From: an uncultured Verrucomicrobiae bacterium
GTDB taxonomy: Bacteria > Verrucomicrobiota > Verrucomicrobiia > Chthoniobacterales > JAFAMB01
Assembly: GCA_963813025.1 (NCBI GenBank)
Contig: CAWEXO010000001.1
Location: forward strand, 64,001-128,000
Length of the DNA: 64,000 nucleotides
Direction: 5' to 3'
Shown piece after piece: positions 40,638 through 50,000 of the stretch (position 1 is the stretch's first letter; the number at the start of each line of letters is the position of its first letter). The notes under the pieces were generated by a model, which ran no database searches, had not been told where the DNA came from, and saw only the letters and a program-made list of their open reading frames with translations. The translations under genes were made by a program, and so were the position numbers.

Positions 40638-43108
40638 TGAACAATTTCACTCCACGTGCTCAACAGGTTTTGGCGCTTGCACGGAAGGAAGCGGATCGGT
40701 TTAACCACAACTATGTGGGCACCGAACACCTTTTACTCGGACTGATCAAACTCGGCCAGGGTGTCGCGGTAAACGTCCTGCAAAAAATGGGACTCGATCT
40801 GGAAACCGTCCGCATGGAGGTGGAGAAGAAGGTCGGCTCCCATCCCGAGACGAAAATGGTGGGCAACATCCCGTATACTCCCCGGGTCAAGAAAGTGCTC
40901 GCCCTCGCCGGCAAAGAAGCTAAAGCGCTCAACCATTCCTACGTCGGCACTGAACATATTTTATTAGGGTTGCTCCGTGAAGGTGAAGGAGTAGCCGCTC
41001 GAGTCCTCAAAAGTCTCGAGGTCGATATCGAAAGAACCCGCAACGAAATTTTAAAAGAATTGGACCCGAATTTTACACCGCCGGAAAGCGAGGCAGAGAG
41101 CCCGCAGGAAGGCAATAAAAAAGATGTTAAAACGCCCGCGTTGCGGGCGTTTGGTCGCGATTTGACTGAACTCGCGAAGAAAGGCGAGCTGGACCCGGTA
41201 ATCGGTCGCAAGAACGAGATCGAACGGGTAATTCAGATTCTTTGCCGGCGGACGAAAAATAACCCAGTGCTGCTCGGTGAAGCCGGTGTTGGCAAGACTG
41301 CCATTGTGGAAGGACTGGCTCAGGAAATCGGGGCCGGCAATGTTCCGGAATTGCTGCGTGACAAGCGGGTGATCACGCTGGACCTGGCCCTCATGGTTGC
41401 CGGAACGAAGTACCGCGGCCAGTTCGAAGAGCGAATCAAAGCGGTCATGGACGAAATCCGCCGCTCCAAAAATGTGGTGCTCTTCATTGACGAGCTTCAC
41501 ACGATTGTCGGTGCCGGTTCGGCGGAAGGCGCCATGGATGCCTCGAACATTATCAAACCGGCTCTGAGCCGGGGTGAACTGCAGTGCGTCGGGGCAACCA
41601 CGCTGAACGAGTATCGCAAATACATCGAGAAGGACGCCGCCTTGGAACGGCGATTCCAGACCGTGAAAGTCGAAGCTCCTACCGTTGAGGAGGCGATCCA
41701 GATCCTGCACGGACTACGACCGAAGTACGAGGCCCACCACAAGGCCAAACTTACGGATGAATCACTCGACGCGGCCGTCCGCCTCTCGGACCGATACCTT
41801 ACCGGCCGTTTTTTGCCGGACAAAGCAATCGACGTCATGGACGAAGCAGGTGCCCGCGCCCGCATCAATGCCATGACTCGTCCGCCAGATGTCAAAGAGA
41901 TCGAAAAGGAGATCGAAGTAATCCGGGCCGACAAGGAAGCTGCCATCAAAGCGCAGGATTTTGAAAAAGCGGCCGCGCTGCGGGATTCCGAAAAACAGGC
42001 GAAGGACAGGCTGGAACGGATCCTGGCCGAGTGGAGAGAAAGGCGGGAGGAGCACGAGGTTGTAGTCACGGCGGACGACATCATGCATATCGTCTCAAAG
42101 TGGACAGGTGTCCCTTTGAACCGTCTGGAAGAGCAGGAGACTCAGAAACTCCTGAAAATGGAAGACGAATTGCGGACGCGAGTCATCGGCCAGGACGAGG
42201 CGGTTATCGCGATCAGTAAAGCGCTCCGGCGTTCCCGGGCAGATTTGAAGGATCCGCGGCGGCCGATTGGTTCCTTCATTTTCCTGGGACCTACCGGCGT
42301 GGGCAAGACATTCCTCGCGCGGACTCTCGCGGAGTTTATGTTCGGCGACGCGGATGCCTTGATCCAGATCGACATGTCCGAATACATGGAAAAATTCACG
42401 GCTTCTCGATTGATCGGTTCGCCTCCCGGCTATGTGGGTTATGAGGAAGGCGGCCAATTATCCGAGGCGGTTCGCCGCCGGCCCTATTCGGTTGTTCTGT
42501 TTGACGAAGTCGAAAAGGCGCATCCCGACGTCATGCATCTGCTGCTGCAGATCCTGGAGGAAGGTAAGATAACTGACAGTCTCGGCCGCAAGATCGACTT
42601 CCGGAACACGATCATCATCATGACTTCGAATGTCGGGGCCGAATTCATCAAACGCCAAAACGCGATGGGTTTTGGCGCGGCGTCGGGCCACGAATCTTAC
42701 GAGGCGATGCGCGACAAGATCTTGGACGAAGCCAAACGCGGTTTCAAACCTGAGTTCCTGAACCGCTTGGACGATATGATCGTGTTTCACACGCTGTCCC
42801 GGCAGGATTTGGTGCAGATCGTCGATCTGGAGGTGGCCAAAGTAACCCAGCGGGTTCGTGCAAAAGACATTCACCTGCAGCTCGAGTCGAGCGCAGTCGA
42901 ATTTCTGATCGATAAGGGTTACGACCCGACCTACGGCGCGCGACCGATGCGGCGAGCGGTCGAACGGTACCTGGAAGACCCTCTTGCCGAGGAGCTTCTG
43001 CGAGCGCGCATCAAAGCCGGGGATACCGTTGAGGTTTACGCCGCGGGCGAGCAACTCGCTTTCCGTCCGGCCCACGCTGAGCAGCCGCAAACGGCGGAGG
43101 CCTCCTGA
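40634..43108 (+). CDS. clpC: ATP-dependent Clp protease ATPase ClpC
   Basis: Two Clp_N repeats, [11 protein letters not shown] middle domain, [14 protein letters not shown]. Confidence 0.97.
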
Positions 43109-43209
43109 GGGGCTTGTCAAAAAACTAAATCGCTTGGGAGTGGGCGCGACGTGGCACCCGGTCATGTGCCGGTAGGGCAGTATCTGAGCAGGTCTGGCAA
43201 GGGAAAAAG

Positions 43210-44484
43210 TTAAAGTTTTTCACCGATTGGTGAGTGGCGTTTTTTGAGGACTTGGAGGTAGCGCTCTTCGTCATAAGGGGTGGGGTCCTGCCAGAGCCGG
43301 AAGATGACGCGGATCCATTTAAAGGCCAAGGCGCGCACGGCAGTGTGGTGGGACTTACCGCGGGCCATTTGCTCTTGATAATAGAGCTTGGCCCATTGGG
43401 AATAAGGAATGGAATGAGCCGCGAATTCGTGGAAGCTCTGGCACAGGAATTTGGAGCGAAAGCGCCGCCGCTGGACGCTTTTGGTTTGGCCGCTGCGCAC
43501 TTGGACCGGAGCGATTCCGCTTTTTTTCTGTACCTCCAGGGCTTGGGCAAAAGCCTGCCGATTGGAGCCAAAAGCCACCAACAAGCGCGGGGCTAATTGC
43601 GGGCCGGCTCCGGGCAGACTTTCAAAAATGTGCCGATCGGGATGTTTGGCAAACAGAGTGTGGATGGCTTTGTCAAAAGCCTTGATGGAATCTCGCAGCG
43701 GCAACAATTGACTGACCAAACACTTGCAACTCAGCACGGAGGGCTCCAGCAGAGAACGATCCTCGGTGACGGTTTGGGCCCGAGCAATCTTTTCCAAGCG
43801 CTCCTCGATCAAGCTCTGGCTGCGGCTGTGGTGCTGATAAAAAAAAGAGCGCAGGGTCTGGGGCTTGGCTTTTTTTAAACTCTGCAGGGTCGGCCAGCGT
43901 TTCAAAAAATGCAGCGCCAGAGTGGTGCCCAAATCATCGAGGAGCTCGAGGGCCAGCGGATAGTAGACTTTGAGTAAGCTGGTGAGTTGGTTTTCGCACA
44001 CCACGGAGGCCTCGACGGCTTTGCGTCGGTGCTGACCGAGCAAATCCAGTTCCCGCACTACCGGCTCCGAGGGTTGATAAAGCCGGAGCCGATCCCGATG
44101 GTGATCAACGAGCTCTTCGATCAATTGGCTGTCGCGAGGGTCATCCTTGGCGCCACTAGTAAAGAAGACCTTGCGGTATTCGCTTAAACTCAAAGGATTG
44201 AGCGGATAGAGGTCGATCCAGTCTCCCTGGGTGCGGAGCATTTCAAAGAGTGCTCCCCGATTTTGTTCAAAACCAATGGCCACCCGCCCCTGCGGACCAG
44301 CCAAGCTTTTGAGCTCTTCGAGCCAGGTCCGAACCGAAACGGGATCGGCGCCCAGCTGGAATGTCCGGCATCCTCCCTCCGGACCAGAGCGTTGACAGAC
44401 AGCGTGTTCTTTATCAGCCCAATCGATTCCCACGCTGACCATATAATGGGGATCTGGGACCGGAAACGGATTTGATCGGTTCAT
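43210..44484 (-). CDS. IS110 family DEDD transposase/recombinase
   Basis: GIDWA, GFEQ, KDDPRD (DEDD), SLPGAG, SGIAP...RSG; RBS AAGGAG. Confidence 0.95.
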   Translation of the reverse strand: MNRSNPFPVPDPHYMVSVGIDWADKEHAVCQRSGPEGGCRTFQLGADPVSVRTWLEELKSLAGPQGRVAIGFEQNRGALFEMLRTQGDWIDLYPLNPLSLSEYRKVFFTSGAKDDPRDSQLIEELVDHHRDRLRLYQPSEPVVRELDLLGQHRRKAVEASVVCENQLTSLLKVYYPLALELLDDLGTTLALHFLKRWPTLQSLKKAKPQTLRSFFYQHHSRSQSLIEERLEKIARAQTVTEDRSLLEPSVLSCKCLVSQLLPLRDSIKAFDKAIHTLFAKHPDRHIFESLPGAGPQLAPRLLVAFGSNRQAFAQALEVQKKSGIAPVQVRSGQTKSVQRRRFRSKFLCQSFHEFAAHSIPYSQWAKLYYQEQMARGKSHHTAVRALAFKWIRVIFRLWQDPTPYDEERYLQVLKKRHSPIGEKL

Positions 44485-44519
44485 GCTTGCTCCTTTTTTC
44501 TGGTTTTACCCAGCGCGAA

Positions 44520-44850
44520 AAAAGCCGCTTGGCTTTGGCCGTCCGAAATCCGTATAGTTAAGTCGTCGAAGTGTGAAGTGCTCGACCTCAACTAGAGTAT
44601 TCGTTGTGACGAATCAAAGCGCGACCGGCTGGCTCGAAACTCTGCCCTAAAGATCTCGCGGACCCGAAAATCCTATTCGTAGCCAGCCGGCGCGTCCTTC
44701 TTCGCGTGGGCAGCGCGGGATTTTGCCCGACTGCCCTTGGCAAAGAAAACCCTTTCTTTTTTCCAAAGCTTTCTTTTCTCCGGGCGGAGTTATTCACAAG
44801 CTGGAGCTCCGACCGGTAGGGCCTCCGACCACAGCTTGCTGAATAACTCC
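44520..44850 (-). ncRNA. Candidate IS110 bridge RNA (5' hairpin, target-binding loop, donor-binding loop)
   Basis: Stem-enclosed loops carry ATTTTCG/TAGGGC (match target) and ATACT/CTATAC (match end junction); begins just downstream of the junction -10. The 3' end is approximate. Confidence 0.75.
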
Positions 44851-44862
44851 GGACTTGCTATA

Positions 44863-44979
44863 CGAAAATTCATTCGAGCGCCAGGCGAGAACTTGTTTGA
44901 GCCGGGCGTTGGATGTGGCAGCTCAAGCGTCCGGCTCGAACGAGTCTTCGCCGAAGGCTCAGATGAATTCTCGCTACCG
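44863..44979. repeat. Right part of the interrupted family A repeat
   Basis: Colinear with 29366-29484. Confidence 0.85.
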
Positions 44980-45074
44980 ATTTTAGATTATTGCGGAGAC
45001 TGCCTCTTCCTCCGGCTTTCGTTGCTCCAGACCTTTTCCTTGCGCTCGGCCTGTTCGCGACGCGAGAATTTGCC

Positions 45075-45920
45075 ATGCTCTGGCAGGCACGCGGCCATCG
45101 TCTCGAATTGGGTCGGCAGGCCCAAATCATGGGTGTGCTGAATGTCACCCCGGATTCCTTCTCTGACGGTGGTCTTTACCTGGACCTCGACCGGGCTCTG
45201 ACCCACGCCCAAACGATGGCCGGCGCGGGGGCAGCCATTATCGACGTCGGAGGCGAATCCTCGCGTCCCGGCTCGGATCCGGTACCCCTCGAAGAGGAGG
45301 TTCGGCGAGTAGTCCCGGTGATTTCGGCCCTGCGGGAGCGATTGCCGGAAATCTTGATTTCTGTGGATACCTATAAGTCCGAGACCGCCCGTCAGGCGCT
45401 CGCGGCCGGAGCGGATATCGTGAATGACATTTCCGCCGCACGAGATCCAGAGATGCTCGCGGTCGTTCGGGAGTTCGGCGCCGGCATTATTCTGATGCAC
45501 ATGCAGGGAGTTCCGAAGACGATGCAGCTTTGTCCTGCTTACCGAAATGCGATCGACGAAGTCGTCGAATTCCTCGAGAGACGCCGAGATTCTCTGGTGG
45601 CGCAGGGCATCGCTCGAGAGCAGATTGGGCTTGACCCCGGATTTGGTTTCGGCAAACGGCTGCAGGACAATATTGTGCTGGCGGGTAACTTGAAGGAGTT
45701 GGCCAAGCTGGGTCAACCAGTCGTGGTTGGCCTTTCCAGAAAATCCAGCTTGGCCCAACTCCTCGGCGATCCGAAGTTGAACTACAGTGGACGGTTCTGG
45801 GCGACGATCGCTTTTACAAGCTACCTGCGCGAACAAGGCGCTCAGGTTGTGCGCGTGCATGATGTCCGGCCTAACGTAGAAGCAATTCGGATGACTGAGG
45901 CGATTCTGAACGATGAATGA
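45075..45920 (+). CDS. folP: Dihydropteroate synthase
   Basis: MGVLNVTPDSFSDGG, DVGGESSRPG, DPGFGFGK, SRKS, RVHDV. Confidence 0.96.
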   Translation: MLWQARGHRLELGRQAQIMGVLNVTPDSFSDGGLYLDLDRALTHAQTMAGAGAAIIDVGGESSRPGSDPVPLEEEVRRVVPVISALRERLPEILISVDTYKSETARQALAAGADIVNDISAARDPEMLAVVREFGAGIILMHMQGVPKTMQLCPAYRNAIDEVVEFLERRRDSLVAQGIAREQIGLDPGFGFGKRLQDNIVLAGNLKELAKLGQPVVVGLSRKSSLAQLLGDPKLNYSGRFWATIAFTSYLREQGAQVVRVHDVRPNVEAIRMTEAILNDE

Positions 45921-49247: not shown

Positions 49248-49604
49248 TCAGGGCCGCTCTCGTGTCGTTGAAGCGCTGACATAAGCCGTGTCCGCCAGAA
49301 CAAACTTCCTGGCTTCGACTTGAAGTTCGCGGAAATGGAATCGCTCCAGCAACGCATCTGCCAGCCGCGACACGAAAGTCTCCAGAAGGCGCGTCTCAGC
49401 CCGCTCAGCAAAACGAGCACATTCCTGGGCGACCTCGCCATAGTCAATCGTCCGATCGATCTGGTCCTCCAGCTCGGAAAACCTTGAAGCTAACCGGTAG
49501 CGTATCGTGATGGAGAGTTGCTGCTCTGCGCTCCTCTCTGCCGCCGGCACTCCAATCCGGCTCCGTACGTTGAGTTCGCGGATCTCGATCCAATCAGCCT
49601 GCAT
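49248..49604 (-). CDS. folB: Dihydroneopterin aldolase
   Basis: IGV...ER...Q, D.IDRTIDY, LLET, V...K. Confidence 0.88.
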   Translation of the reverse strand: MQADWIEIRELNVRSRIGVPAAERSAEQQLSITIRYRLASRFSELEDQIDRTIDYGEVAQECARFAERAETRLLETFVSRLADALLERFHFRELQVEARKFVLADTAYVSASTTRERP

Positions 49605-49637
49605 CGCTCGCAAATCGCTGAGATTTGCGAGCGATGC
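49601..49637. promoter_or_regulatory. Perfect 16-bp hairpin covering the folB start codon
   Basis: GCATCGCTCGCAAATC-gctga-GATTTGCGAGCGATGC. Confidence 0.6.
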
Positions 49638-49640
49638 GGG

Positions 49641-50000
49641 CTACCCTAACCGAAAACGGATATCTTTGATTATACCACCACCGAAACGCTGTTTAAGCTT
49701 CCGCAAAACCAGCGGTTTCCATTTCCGGTCCAGTTCGTAAAGAATCGTAGGCTGCACGACGTGCACAACCAAAGTTCCTTCCCAGAGTTTTGCCGGATGC
49801 GAATGTCGGGCGAAAAACTCGCCGACGACTGCGCTCCACGCCGCCAGTACTTCCTGTTCCTTTAAGCGGCTGGCCAAGCCCAGCTTTGGTGCCAGCAATT
49901 TCAGCACTTCGCCTACCGAAACGGTGCGATCGGCCTTCTCTTCCCCTTGGGGTAAACCGCGCCACTCTTCCAGAACATAACCCCGCAGAGAGCGCTTCAT
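49641..50000 (-). CDS. DUF721 / DciA family protein
   Basis: W..VVG...A.HS.P..L..G.L.V.V.....EL....K...L..L......I..IRF pattern. Confidence 0.82.
   Translation of the reverse strand: MKRSLRGYVLEEWRGLPQGEEKADRTVSVGEVLKLLAPKLGLASRLKEQEVLAAWSAVVGEFFARHSHPAKLWEGTLVVHVVQPTILYELDRKWKPLVLRKLKQRFGGGIIKDIRFRLG

What the first reader, a model, noticed from the sequence alone, without database searches (positions are those of the whole stretch)
44520..44700. Readable bridge RNA: loop guides match both the REP target and the element's own end junction
Seen (transposase-sense strand): the reconstructed target is GAATTTTC-G-CCCTACC and the circle junction (donor) is CAGATACT-G-TATAGC. A 10-bp stem (44625-44634/44681-44690) encloses ATTTTCG (44665-44671, identical to left target + G), a small hairpin, and TAGGGC (44644-44649, reverse complement of G + right target). 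A second structure has ATACT (44596-44600, identical to left donor), an inner stem (44587-44594/44555-44562) and CTATAC (44552-44557, reverse complement of G + right donor; it partly overlaps that stem). Established: IS110 bridge RNAs use this left-guide-identical, right-guide-complementary layout in target- and donor-binding loops. Inference: a programmable RNA-guided recombinase with a new specificity and an apparent 1-nt shared core rather than the usual 2 nt. The left donor guide has C, not G, at the core position.
Basis: partly seen in the sequence, partly recalled or inferred. Interest (0 to 1): 0.9.

Follow-up and report, generated by a model that had tools for sequence, protein, structure and literature searches.

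The report
IS110 bridge RNA with one-base core
The flagged stretch encodes the guide ("bridge") RNA of an IS110-type mobile element that aims the element at a very common genomic repeat, and it is an ordinary member of this recently described kind except that element and target share one base, not two, at the crossover point.

Summary
They lie in the 378-nt left end of a 1,684-bp IS110-family element (window 43179-44862, minus strand). The genome holds 10 copies, all in the same repeat. The intact target ATTTTCGCCCTACC occurs 127 times.

The RNA scaffold recurs upstream of related recombinases in 56 other loci. Its stems covary: 13 of 25 pairs carry compensatory changes. Its loop strands covary with each element's own flanks. 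So this is a real bridge RNA with a target loop and a donor loop.

The left donor guide "ATACT" is probably a coincidence of conserved scaffold letters. The homologous guide lies just downstream and fits the right end only imperfectly.

Only one G is shared between donor and target, where 22 of 37 relatives share CT. The neighbouring position differs (target C, donor T), and each loop reads it as the other partner's base, like the known "handshake" positions.

No RNA or recombination data exist.

Verdict: a new variant of a known kind, of moderate interest.

The parts
43179..44862 (-). IS110-family insertion sequence, 1,684 bp, plus one shared G
   Evidence: 10 copies at 98-100% identity with the same ends. 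All 10 carry an intact 424-aa ORF.
43210..44484 (-). Recombinase gene, 424 aa (DEDD RuvC-like domain plus Tnp domain)
   Evidence: Pfam PF01548 (2.3e-20) and PF02371 (1.1e-08). NCBIfam NF033542 'IS110 family RNA-guided transposase', 144.1 bits against a cut-off of 140. D21, E73, D115, D118 and S331 are invariant in 12 relatives.
44485..44862 (-). Non-coding left end (378 nt) that encodes the bridge RNA
   Evidence: Fold energy z = -5.3, with 0 of 100 shuffles folding as well. The right end is only 31 nt (43179-43209).
44863..44871 (-). Left half of the target (GAATTTTCG). The G at 44863 is the shared nucleotide.
43171..43178 (-). Right half of the target (GCCCTACC). The G at 43178 is the second copy of the shared nucleotide.
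44620..44696 (-). Target-binding loop module. It consists of the outer stem, the CGAA/UUCG closing pairs (44679-44676 / 44638-44635), an internal loop and a small hairpin (44664-44652).
   Evidence: In the outer helix, 11 of 17 pairs have compensatory changes among 9 diverse relatives. The covariance model matches 44536-44696 at 142 bits.
44665..44673 (-). Left target guide GGAUUUUCG. It is identical to the left target, with G where the target has A at one or two positions (a G-T wobble with the bottom strand).
   Evidence: The homologous strand matches its own left flank by 7 nt or more in 18 of 31 distinct RNAs, against 0.45% of 892 cross pairs.
44642..44649 (-). Right target guide UAGGGC (44649-44644) followed by AG (44643-44642). 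The whole 8-mer is complementary to the right junction CTGCCCTA.
   Evidence: The homologous 7-mer sits directly after the right-end motif in 34 of 46 loci. 12 of 23 distinct RNAs match by 7 nt or more, against 0 of 474 cross pairs.
44541..44611 (-). Donor-binding loop module. It consists of the CGAA/UUCG closing pairs (44603-44600 / 44547-44544), an internal loop and the inner stem GUCGAG.../...CUUCGAC.
44586..44598 (-). Homologous left donor guide ACUC-U-AGUUGAG-G. It pairs with the right end GCTCAGATACTG through 7 Watson-Crick pairs, 1 wobble and 3 mismatches, with one bulged U.
   Evidence: In relatives this register tracks right-end variants: AUG/ATG, AUC/ATC, GUG/GTG, GGC/GGC. In the window it also forms a 7-8 bp helix with 44562-44555.
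44596..44600 (-). It is identical to the last 5 nt of the right end but is probably scaffold.
   Evidence: ACGAAUACUC also stands in L016, L020, L058, L060, L068, L070 and L072, whose right ends finish differently where known. The closest relatives match only UACU.
44550..44557 (-). Right donor guide CUAUAC (44557-44552) followed by GG (44551-44550). It is complementary to the left junction (T)CGTATAG and, with one wobble, to the donor CTGTATAG.
   Evidence: The reverse complement of the homologous 7-mer finds a left junction upstream in 52 of 57 RNAs.
43195..43200 (-). -35-like TTGCCA in the right end. It lies 17 bp from the -10-like TATAGC (44862-44857) only when the ends are joined through the single G.
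   Evidence: Read. Relatives carry TTGACA-like hexamers at the same distance. The promoter scan cannot see a joined circle.
44784..44853 (-). 5' stem-loop of the left end (approximate limits). Its apex holds GCCCTACCGG.
   Evidence: Fold. The stem sequence is conserved in L014 and L015.
44518..44536 (-). Terminator-like hairpin AAAGCC-AAGC-GGCUUU plus UUU, lying between the RNA and the ribosome-binding site
   Evidence: Present in the fold. It did not meet the criteria of the terminator scan.

Best explanation
What it is. Window 44485-44862 (minus strand) is the left non-coding end of an active-looking IS110-family insertion sequence. It encodes a bridge RNA of roughly 300 nt.

The two modules. 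Each is an internal loop closed by conserved CGAA/UUCG pairs.
[quoted passage not shown] - In the second (donor) loop, the 3' strand CUAUAC can pair with the start of the left end. A 5' strand pairs with the tail of the right end.

How it most likely works. The DEDD/Ser recombinase, loaded with this RNA, would bring together the circularised element (junction ...CAGATACT-G-TATAGC...) and the repeat site AATTTTC-G-CCCTACC. It would exchange strands at the single shared G.

The position before the G. It is C in the target and T in the donor. The target loop carries A there, which pairs only with the donor's T. The donor loop carries G there, which pairs best with the target's C. Together with the next nucleotide, this gives more RNA-DNA pairs after top-strand exchange than before: 4 Watson-Crick against 2 over positions 6-8. 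That is the published handshake logic that favours insertion.

Shown here: the anatomy, the copies, the target, the conservation and covariation of the RNA, and the covariation of guides with flanks.
Inferred: that the RNA is made, the circle, the cleavage positions, and the direction bias.
For: Element and target:
- 10 copies lie in the same site, with intact ORFs and an identical 161-nt RNA core.
- There are 127 exact empty sites.
- Contigs of run X1 also show the uninterrupted site abutting 44863.

Recombinase family.

RNA:
- The covariance model finds the scaffold just upstream of the recombinase gene, giving 57 usable RNAs including the window's. 100 of 106 sources were searched.
- 96.9% of cells are paired and 13 of 25 pairs carry compensatory changes. 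0 of 500 shuffles reach this, and structures slid by 1-3 columns give 1-4 such pairs.

Guides:
- Left strand against left flank: 18 of 31 own-locus pairs match by 7 nt or more, against 0.45% of 892 cross pairs.
- Right strand against right flank: 12 of 23, against 0 of 474 cross pairs.
- The donor 3' strand finds the left junction in 52 of 57 RNAs.
- The closest relatives changed the guide and the target together: AGGUUUUCG with GAGGTTTTCG, and GGAGCCUC with GGAGCCTCG.

Handshake: the donor-loop nucleotide after the core pairs by Watson-Crick with target position 7 in 19 of 28 non-redundant loci. 0 of 10,000 permutations reach this.

The IS621 rules come from passages of PMC11208160, PMC11208158 and PMC13626964.
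Against: - No transcript, circle junction or recombination product was observed. No RNA run was listed. Contigs showed no joint.
- No sigma-70-like promoter was found on the minus strand of the integrated left end.
- The donor 5' guide fits poorly. The homologous register has 3 mismatches in its last 6 positions. In the free RNA it is sequestered in a perfect 7-8 bp helix.
- The target-loop 3' strand holds the G one nucleotide further from the closing UUCG than the donor loop does. The two loops are therefore out of register by one, and I cannot explain how one enzyme geometry cuts both correctly.
- The recombinase is only remotely similar to the solved IS621 and ISCro4 proteins (E about 1e-6, C-terminal domain only). 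Transferring mechanistic detail to it is therefore risky.
Confidence: 0.85

Rival explanations
1. The bridge RNA is as described, but the functional left donor guide is the reader's AAUACU (44601-44596). It would pair with the last five bases of the right end next to the crossover. The downstream segment AGUUGAG would be a structural helix in this lineage.
For: - Five contiguous Watson-Crick pairs lie directly beside the crossover.
- AGUUGAG forms a perfect 7-bp helix with CUUAACU in the window. In the closest relatives it forms a 6-bp helix with wobbles.
- UACU is kept opposite TACT in all near relatives.
Against: - The RNA letters are the family-wide scaffold ACGAAU plus ACUC. They also stand in relatives whose right ends finish in GATGTCT, GATCACT or GGTGGAT.
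- Near relatives with T or C at the fifth position match only 4 nt.
- There is a C opposite the shared G.
- Using the closing CGAA pair as a guide would open the loop.
Confidence: 0.3
2. There is no staggered core at all. The crossover is a flush exchange between position 8 and the G on both strands. The G then simply belongs to the element's left end in the donor and to the right half in the target.
For: - All junctions fit this reading.
- The one odd copy fits too: left ...TTTTCG|TATAGC, right ...ATACT|ACCCTACC. It would need no mismatch if the element entered one of the 3 sites that read ATTTTCACCCTACC.
Against: - IS621 cuts top and bottom strands 4 nt apart (passages of PMC11208158).
- Both 3' guide strands and the left target guide read the G.
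- A later G-to-A mutation explains the odd copy equally well.
Confidence: 0.12
3. The copies are recent relics. The RNA is not made or not used in this host, and the matches only record past activity.
For: - No promoter was found in the integrated state.
- No RNA run was available.
- This element's right end carries an A where near relatives have the T that fits the homologous donor guide.
Against: - 10 of 10 copies have intact ORFs and an identical 161-nt RNA core, although three copies differ at about 25-27 of the 33 variable positions, nearly all within the ORF.
- IS621 bridge RNA is likewise only weakly expressed from integrated copies (abstract of PMC13626964).
Confidence: 0.1
4. The matches are chance, or they act as DNA-level protein-binding repeats rather than through an RNA.
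For: Single short strings are common in shuffles: the 7-mer in 6%, the 6-mer in 9% and the 5-mer in 5%.
Against: - All four strings in order arose in 0 of 20,000 shuffles.
- Compensatory base-pair changes in the stems point to RNA structure.
- Guides covary with flanks across dozens of loci.
Confidence: 0.02

Closest known systems
IS621 bridge RNA / recombinase of E. coli (Durrant et al. 2024, PMC11208160; Hiraizumi et al. 2024, PMC11208158; I saw passages only)
   Same: - A DEDD plus Ser recombinase.
- A long left end that encodes an RNA with a 5' target loop and a 3' donor loop.
- The 5' strand of each loop is identical to the top strand of the left arm, and the 3' strand is complementary to the right arm.
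- A REP-type target.
- A promoter split across the circle junction.
- Handshake nucleotides 3' of the right guides.
   Different: - The protein is only remotely similar (E 7e-6, C-terminal part only).
- The RNA scaffold differs: loops are closed by CGAA/UUCG and the left end is 378 nt.
- Position 9 is G, not the nearly invariant T.
- Position 8 differs between donor (T) and target (C), so only one base is shared.
- The target loop reads the G one nucleotide out of register with the donor loop.
CT-core relatives of this same subfamily found here (for example L017/L018, L021, L068, L094, L023, L060)
   Same: - The same RNA scaffold.
- The same right-end motif CTCAG and left-end start TATAG.
- The same guide layout and the same handshake covariation.
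   Different: - They share CT in both donor and target: 22 of 37 loci with both junctions called.
- The window and its 65-72% relatives have CG at the left junction and TG at the right: 12 of 37.
- In the near relatives where the hairpin finder worked (L038, L040, L046), the target-loop 3' strand is one nucleotide longer relative to the 5' strand. That finder failed for many RNAs, including the window's own.
ISCro4 / IS622 bridge recombinases used for genome editing (Perry et al. 2025 preprint, 10.1101/2025.05.14.653916; I saw passages only)
   Same: The same kind of two-loop, RNA-guided recombination with handshake guides.
   Different: Those designs require identical CT or GT cores in both partners and non-matching positions 6-7. 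Here the natural partners differ at position 8 as well.
REP-targeting IS110 elements ISPpu9 and ISPpu10 of Pseudomonas putida (PMC12288879; 10.64898/2026.03.19.712850; I saw only the search listing and the start of each abstract)
   Same: Multi-copy IS110-family elements inserted at one position of an abundant intergenic repeat.
   Different: The host, the repeat and the guide sequences are different. I did not compare sequences.

Membership tests
IS110-family bridge RNA system (IS110 group) | Recombinase with an N-terminal DEDD RuvC-like domain and a C-terminal Tnp domain carrying a conserved serine | tested here: met
   PF01548 and PF02371. NF033542 scores above its cut-off. D21, E73, D115, D118 and S331 are invariant in 12 relatives. 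S331 aligns with the ESG serine of ISCro4. That this serine is the catalytic one is recalled, not tested.
IS110-family bridge RNA system (IS110 group) | Long non-coding left end upstream of the gene, and a short right end | tested here: met
   The left end is 378 nt and the right end 31 nt, with ends fixed by 10 copies.
IS110-family bridge RNA system (IS110 group) | Conserved structured RNA with two internal loops in the left end | tested here: met
   Covariance-model matches upstream of related genes gave 57 usable RNAs, the window's included. 13 of 25 pairs carry compensatory changes, and 0 of 500 shuffles reach this. No Rfam family matched.
IS110-family bridge RNA system (IS110 group) | Target-loop strands match the left target (identity) and the right target (complement), and covary with them | tested here: met
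   The window has a 7-9 nt left match and a 6 nt right match. Across loci: 18 of 31 against 0.45%, and 12 of 23 against 0 of 474.
IS110-family bridge RNA system (IS110 group) | Donor-loop strands match the right-end tail (identity) and the left-end start (complement) | tested here: inconclusive
The right donor guide is clear (6-8 nt; 52 of 57 loci). The left donor guide is ambiguous in the window. The homologous register gives 7 Watson-Crick pairs, 1 wobble and 3 mismatches.
IS110-family bridge RNA system (IS110 group) | Identical core dinucleotide (usually CT) in donor and target, duplicated at both ends | tested here: not met
   Only one G is duplicated. The target has CG and the donor TG at positions 8-9. 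22 of 37 relatives have CT at both junctions.
IS110-family bridge RNA system (IS110 group) | Handshake nucleotides 3' of the right guides pair with the other partner after strand exchange | tested here: met
   In the window, AG (44643-44642) pairs with donor CT, and GG (44551-44550) pairs with target TC through one Watson-Crick pair and one wobble. Across the family, 19 of 28 are Watson-Crick and 0 of 10,000 permutations reach this.
IS110-family bridge RNA system (IS110 group) | Sigma-70 promoter assembled across the circle junction | tested here: inconclusive
   TTGCCA, a 17-bp spacer and TATAGC line up only if the ends join through the single G (read). Relatives keep the same spacing. No circle was observed.
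IS110-family bridge RNA system (IS110 group) | The RNA is expressed, is bound by the recombinase, and directs recombination | not testable with these tools
   No RNA run was listed. No assay was possible.

The most novel reading that the evidence does not exclude
This lineage of bridge recombinases naturally joins a donor and a target that share only one nucleotide, a G at the position where IS621 needs T. The first 'core' position has been turned into a third handshake position that each loop reads as the other partner's base. If true, a matching core dinucleotide is not a universal requirement of bridge recombination. This orthologue would then offer a different and looser core constraint, and perhaps a stronger built-in bias towards insertion.
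Probability: 0.45. Interest if true: 0.6.

Novelty: new variant of a known kind. Interest (0 to 1): 0.4.

Why it matters
Bridge recombinases are being developed as programmable tools for inserting, excising and inverting DNA. Published designs require donor and target to carry the same CT or GT dinucleotide.

This natural system has 10 fresh copies and more than a hundred intact targets in one genome. Only a G is shared, and the neighbouring base is read cross-wise. It suggests that the core rule can be relaxed and that the handshake principle can extend into the core.

It also supplies a second, well-populated RNA scaffold, remote from IS621, on which the guide rules can be tested.

For genome biology the finding is ordinary: an IS110-family element homing to an abundant intergenic repeat.

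Tried and rejected
- Rfam scan of 43000-45100 at E up to 1: only three sub-threshold chance hits (MAT2A_D, mir-223, Histone3) and no bridge RNA family.
- Sequencing runs: no RNA holder was listed. Four DNA or unknown-kind runs were listed, all kept as contigs.
- Laying X1 and X2 gave no joint, hence no circle junction and no transcript ends. X2 contributed one 151-nt contig identical to 44637-44787, from a run of unknown kind, which I do not interpret.
- Promoter/terminator scan: no minus-strand promoter in the integrated left end. The hairpin before the gene did not meet the terminator rule.
- Earlier findings of the scan: none for this place.
- PDB sequence search: only the C-terminal domain aligned to ISCro4 and IS621. 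I therefore could not map the IS621 residues that read the core T.
- Phylum-wide genome search (401 genomes): only 38-44% relatives turned up, and no further close relatives to settle the left donor guide.
- String searches of the text supplements of PMC11208160, using seven strings of this RNA and of its subfamily: 0 files with hits. One PDF could not be read, and long files may be cut.
- Passages on 'core' in 10.1101/2024.06.21.599552: nothing relevant.
- A first regular-expression parse of the loops mis-set several loci. I replaced it with the covariance-model alignment.
- The simple hairpin finder failed for many RNAs, so the strand-length comparison rests on a subset.
- Rejected idea: a CT core inside GCC-CT-ACC. 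It predicts junctions that are not observed.

Full report
**Observation.**
- ATTTTCG at 44671-44665
- TAGGGC at 44649-44644
- ATACT at 44600-44596
- CTATAC at 44557-44552
- a perfect 10-bp stem, 44690-44681 with 44634-44625
- an 8-pair inner stem, 44594-44587 with 44562-44555

An early notebook entry of mine said the outer stem was off by one. That was my own indexing error.

In 20,000 dinucleotide-preserving shuffles of the left end:
- the target pair of strings, in order, arose 24 times;
- the donor pair arose twice;
- all four together never arose;
- each single string is common (5-9% of shuffles).

**The element.**
The strings lie in the 378-nt non-coding stretch upstream of a 424-aa ORF on the minus strand (43210-44484).
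- The ORF carries the two IS110 recombinase domains.
- It passes NCBI's model 'IS110 family RNA-guided transposase' (144.1 bits, cut-off 140).
- D21, E73, D115, D118 and S331 are invariant in an alignment with 11 relatives of 36-72% identity.

The genome holds 10 full copies at 98-100% identity.
- All have an intact ORF.
- All have an identical 161-nt RNA core.
- The ends are TATAGC... (first base at 44862) and ...CAGATACT (last base at 43179).
- 10 of 10 copies have AATTTTCG to the left.
- 9 of 10 have GCCCTACC to the right. One copy has ACCCTACC.

The uninterrupted site ATTTTCGCCCTACC occurs 127 times exactly and 233 times within one mismatch, always inside a longer conserved repeat. Contigs of a soil run also show the uninterrupted site abutting 44863. 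Exactly one G is therefore duplicated on insertion.

**Is there an RNA?**

I fetched 25 loci from genomes and 80 from metagenomes that encode relatives at 29-72% identity.
- An alignment of nine diverse upstream regions gave a consensus of 25 pairs. These were a 17-pair outer helix of the first module, the invariant CGAA/UUCG pairs that close both internal loops, and a 4-pair inner helix of the second module.
- 13 of the 25 pairs carry compensatory changes, and 96.9% of cells are paired.
- 0 of 500 shuffles reach any of the five measures.
- Structures slid by 1-3 columns give only 1-4 compensatory pairs.
- A covariance model built from this alignment gave 63 matches in 100 of the 106 sources I held. 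After I dropped two spurious hits, one aberrant match (L086) and three truncated ones, 57 RNAs remained, the window's included. All lie just upstream of the recombinase gene.

Rfam has no matching family. Strings of this RNA and of its subfamily are not in the text supplements of the 2024 discovery paper. One PDF there could not be read.

**Guides.**
Passages of Durrant et al. state the IS621 layout:
- The first internal loop reads the target and the second reads the donor.
[quoted passage not shown] The window fits this for the target.
- GGAUUUUCG (44673-44665) abuts a small hairpin. It matches (G/A)AATTTTCG, with G-T wobbles at one or two positions.
- UAGGGC (44649-44644) is the complement of GCCCTA.

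The same strands covary with flanks across the family.
- Left strand: 18 of 31 distinct RNAs share 7 nt or more with their own left flank, against 0.45% of 892 cross pairs.
- Right strand: 12 of 23, against 0 of 474 cross pairs.
- In 34 of 46 loci the match sits directly after the conserved right-end motif.

The closest relatives make the point by themselves.
- Guides AGGUUUUCG and CAGGUUUUCG stand next to flanks GAGGTTTTCG and CAGGTTTTCG.
- GGAGCCUC stands next to GGAGCCTCG.
- One locus (L049) does not fit its flank and looks chimeric.

For the donor, CUAUAC (44557-44552) is the complement of G+TATAG. The homologous 7-mer finds a left junction upstream in 52 of 57 RNAs. The five misses are loci cut off upstream, and three of the hits (L020, L072, L078) look doubtful.

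**The left donor guide.**
- It consists of the last letters of the invariant scaffold ACGAAU plus ACUC.
- The same ACGAAUACUC stands in L016, L020, L058, L060, L068, L070 and L072.
- Where their right ends are known, they finish in GGTGGAT, GATGTCT or GATCACT.

In relatives, the strand that tracks the right end begins at that (A/C)CUC and runs to the inner stem.
- CUCAGAUGUC pairs with CTCAGATGTC.
- AUC pairs with ATC in L060.
- GUG pairs with GTG in L016.
- GGC pairs with GGC in L020.

In the window this register is ACUC-U-AGUUGAG-G (44598-44586) against GCTCAGATACTG.
- It gives 7 Watson-Crick pairs, one wobble, three mismatches and one bulged U.
- The near relatives fit better, because their right end has T where the window has A.
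- The window's segment also forms a perfect helix with 44562-44555.

The data cannot decide, because the last four right-end bases never vary among the near relatives.

**The core.**
Of the 37 loci where both junctions could be called:
- 22 have CT at both junctions.
- 12, the window and its 65-72% relatives, have CG at the left and TG at the right.
- One has TT and AT.
- Two are unclear.

The length of the right end from its CTCAG motif places the window's TG where relatives have CT. So does the 17-bp spacing between a -35-like TTGCCA (43200-43195) and the -10-like TATAGC (44862-44857) across the joined ends. So position 9 is a shared G, and position 8 is C in the target and T in the donor.

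The 3' strands read position 8 cross-wise.
- The target loop has C-A-G (44644-44642), the complement of the donor's C-T-G.
- The donor loop has C-G-G (44552-44550). This pairs with the target's T-C-G (wobble, Watson-Crick, Watson-Crick) and with the donor's C-T-G (Watson-Crick, wobble, Watson-Crick).
- Over positions 6-8, this gives 2 Watson-Crick pairs before top-strand exchange and 4 after.

Passages of Hiraizumi et al. 2024 and 2026 describe exactly this 'fewer to more pairs' handshake. There it applies to positions 6-7 of IS621, it drives insertion, and it disfavours excision. The family follows the same rule: the donor-loop nucleotide after the core is Watson-Crick to target position 7 in 19 of 28 non-redundant loci, with 0 of 10,000 permutations reaching this.

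In mechanism it looks like a handshake that has spread into the first core position.

IS621 cuts its two strands four positions apart and leaves mismatches at positions 6-7 to be resolved. A third mismatched position is therefore a change of degree, not of kind.

**Unexplained.**
- In the target loop, the base that reads the G stands five nucleotides from the closing UUCG. In the donor loop, and in CT-core relatives, the equivalent distance is four.
- In the near relatives where the hairpin could be found (L038, L040, L046), the target-loop 3' strand is one nucleotide longer relative to the 5' strand (a partial data set; the finder failed on the window's own RNA).
- A bulged A at 44643 would restore the register, but it would also give cognate pairing. 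I cannot choose between these readings.
- The copy with A at the right junction fits either a flush exchange into one of the three A-variant sites or a later mutation.

**Not obtained.**
- No RNA run was listed. The laid contigs show no circle junction.
- No promoter was found in the integrated left end.
- The solved IS621 and ISCro4 proteins align only over the C-terminal domain.
- A phylum-wide search added no close relatives.

**Verdict.**
This is a genuine bridge RNA of an IS110-family element that homes to an abundant repeat. The left donor guide is probably mis-assigned, and the 'one-nucleotide core' is better described as a shared G plus an extended handshake. It is a new variant of a known kind, of moderate interest.

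Noticed in passing
whole genome G000; example in window 43171-43178 and 44863-44890: A REP-like repeat carries ATTTTCGCCCTACC at a fixed place: 127 exact and 233 near copies in 4.4 Mb. A frequent variant, ATTCTCGCCCTACC, occurs 47 times. None of the 10 insertions lies in that variant.
   Followed up: partly
G000 C13 near 92609 and C11 near 77965 (outside the window): Two copies carry a 13-bp tandem duplication of the first left-end bases (TATAGCAAGTCCG). The internal joint CCG|TATAG is the exact complement of the donor-loop 3' strand CUAUACGG. The duplication may therefore be a product of the recombinase itself.
   Followed up: no
G000 C4 2722-4466 (outside the window): One copy has A instead of the shared G at the right junction but G at the left. 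Three empty sites in the genome read ATTTTCACCCTACC.
   Followed up: partly
window 44813-44822 (minus strand): The apex of the left end's 5' stem-loop holds GCCCTACCGG, the right half of the element's own target. The 69% relatives L014 and L015 lack it.
   Followed up: no
L049:452-607 and its left flank: This relative's left target guide (CAGGUUUUCG) does not fit its left flank (CAGAGCCTCG), and its left-end start is of the other subgroup. It is either a chimeric element or an off-target insertion.
   Followed up: no
window 44665-44680 against the target's left arm: The target loop's 5' strand, including the scaffold CGAAU, resembles the repeat's CGAAT(G/A)AATTTTCG over 14-15 nt with one indel. 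The scaffold is family-wide, so this may be chance.
   Followed up: no
window 49593-49711 (+): A weak match to the bridge RNA model (24.6 bits, E 7e-4), not next to any recombinase gene. It is probably a plain hairpin.
   Followed up: no
G000 C1 207772-208072 (outside the window): A fragment at about 91% identity covers the left flank and the first 200 or so bases of the left end. It looks like a truncated copy.
   Followed up: no
window 44637-44787: Run X2 (kind unknown, organism coded A) holds a single 151-nt contig identical to this part of the left end, at depth 2.
   Followed up: no
L016, L063 (and L078): A second lineage of the subfamily also has unequal bases at core position 8: TT at the left junction and AT at the right. 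The two loops again read them cross-wise.
   Followed up: partly
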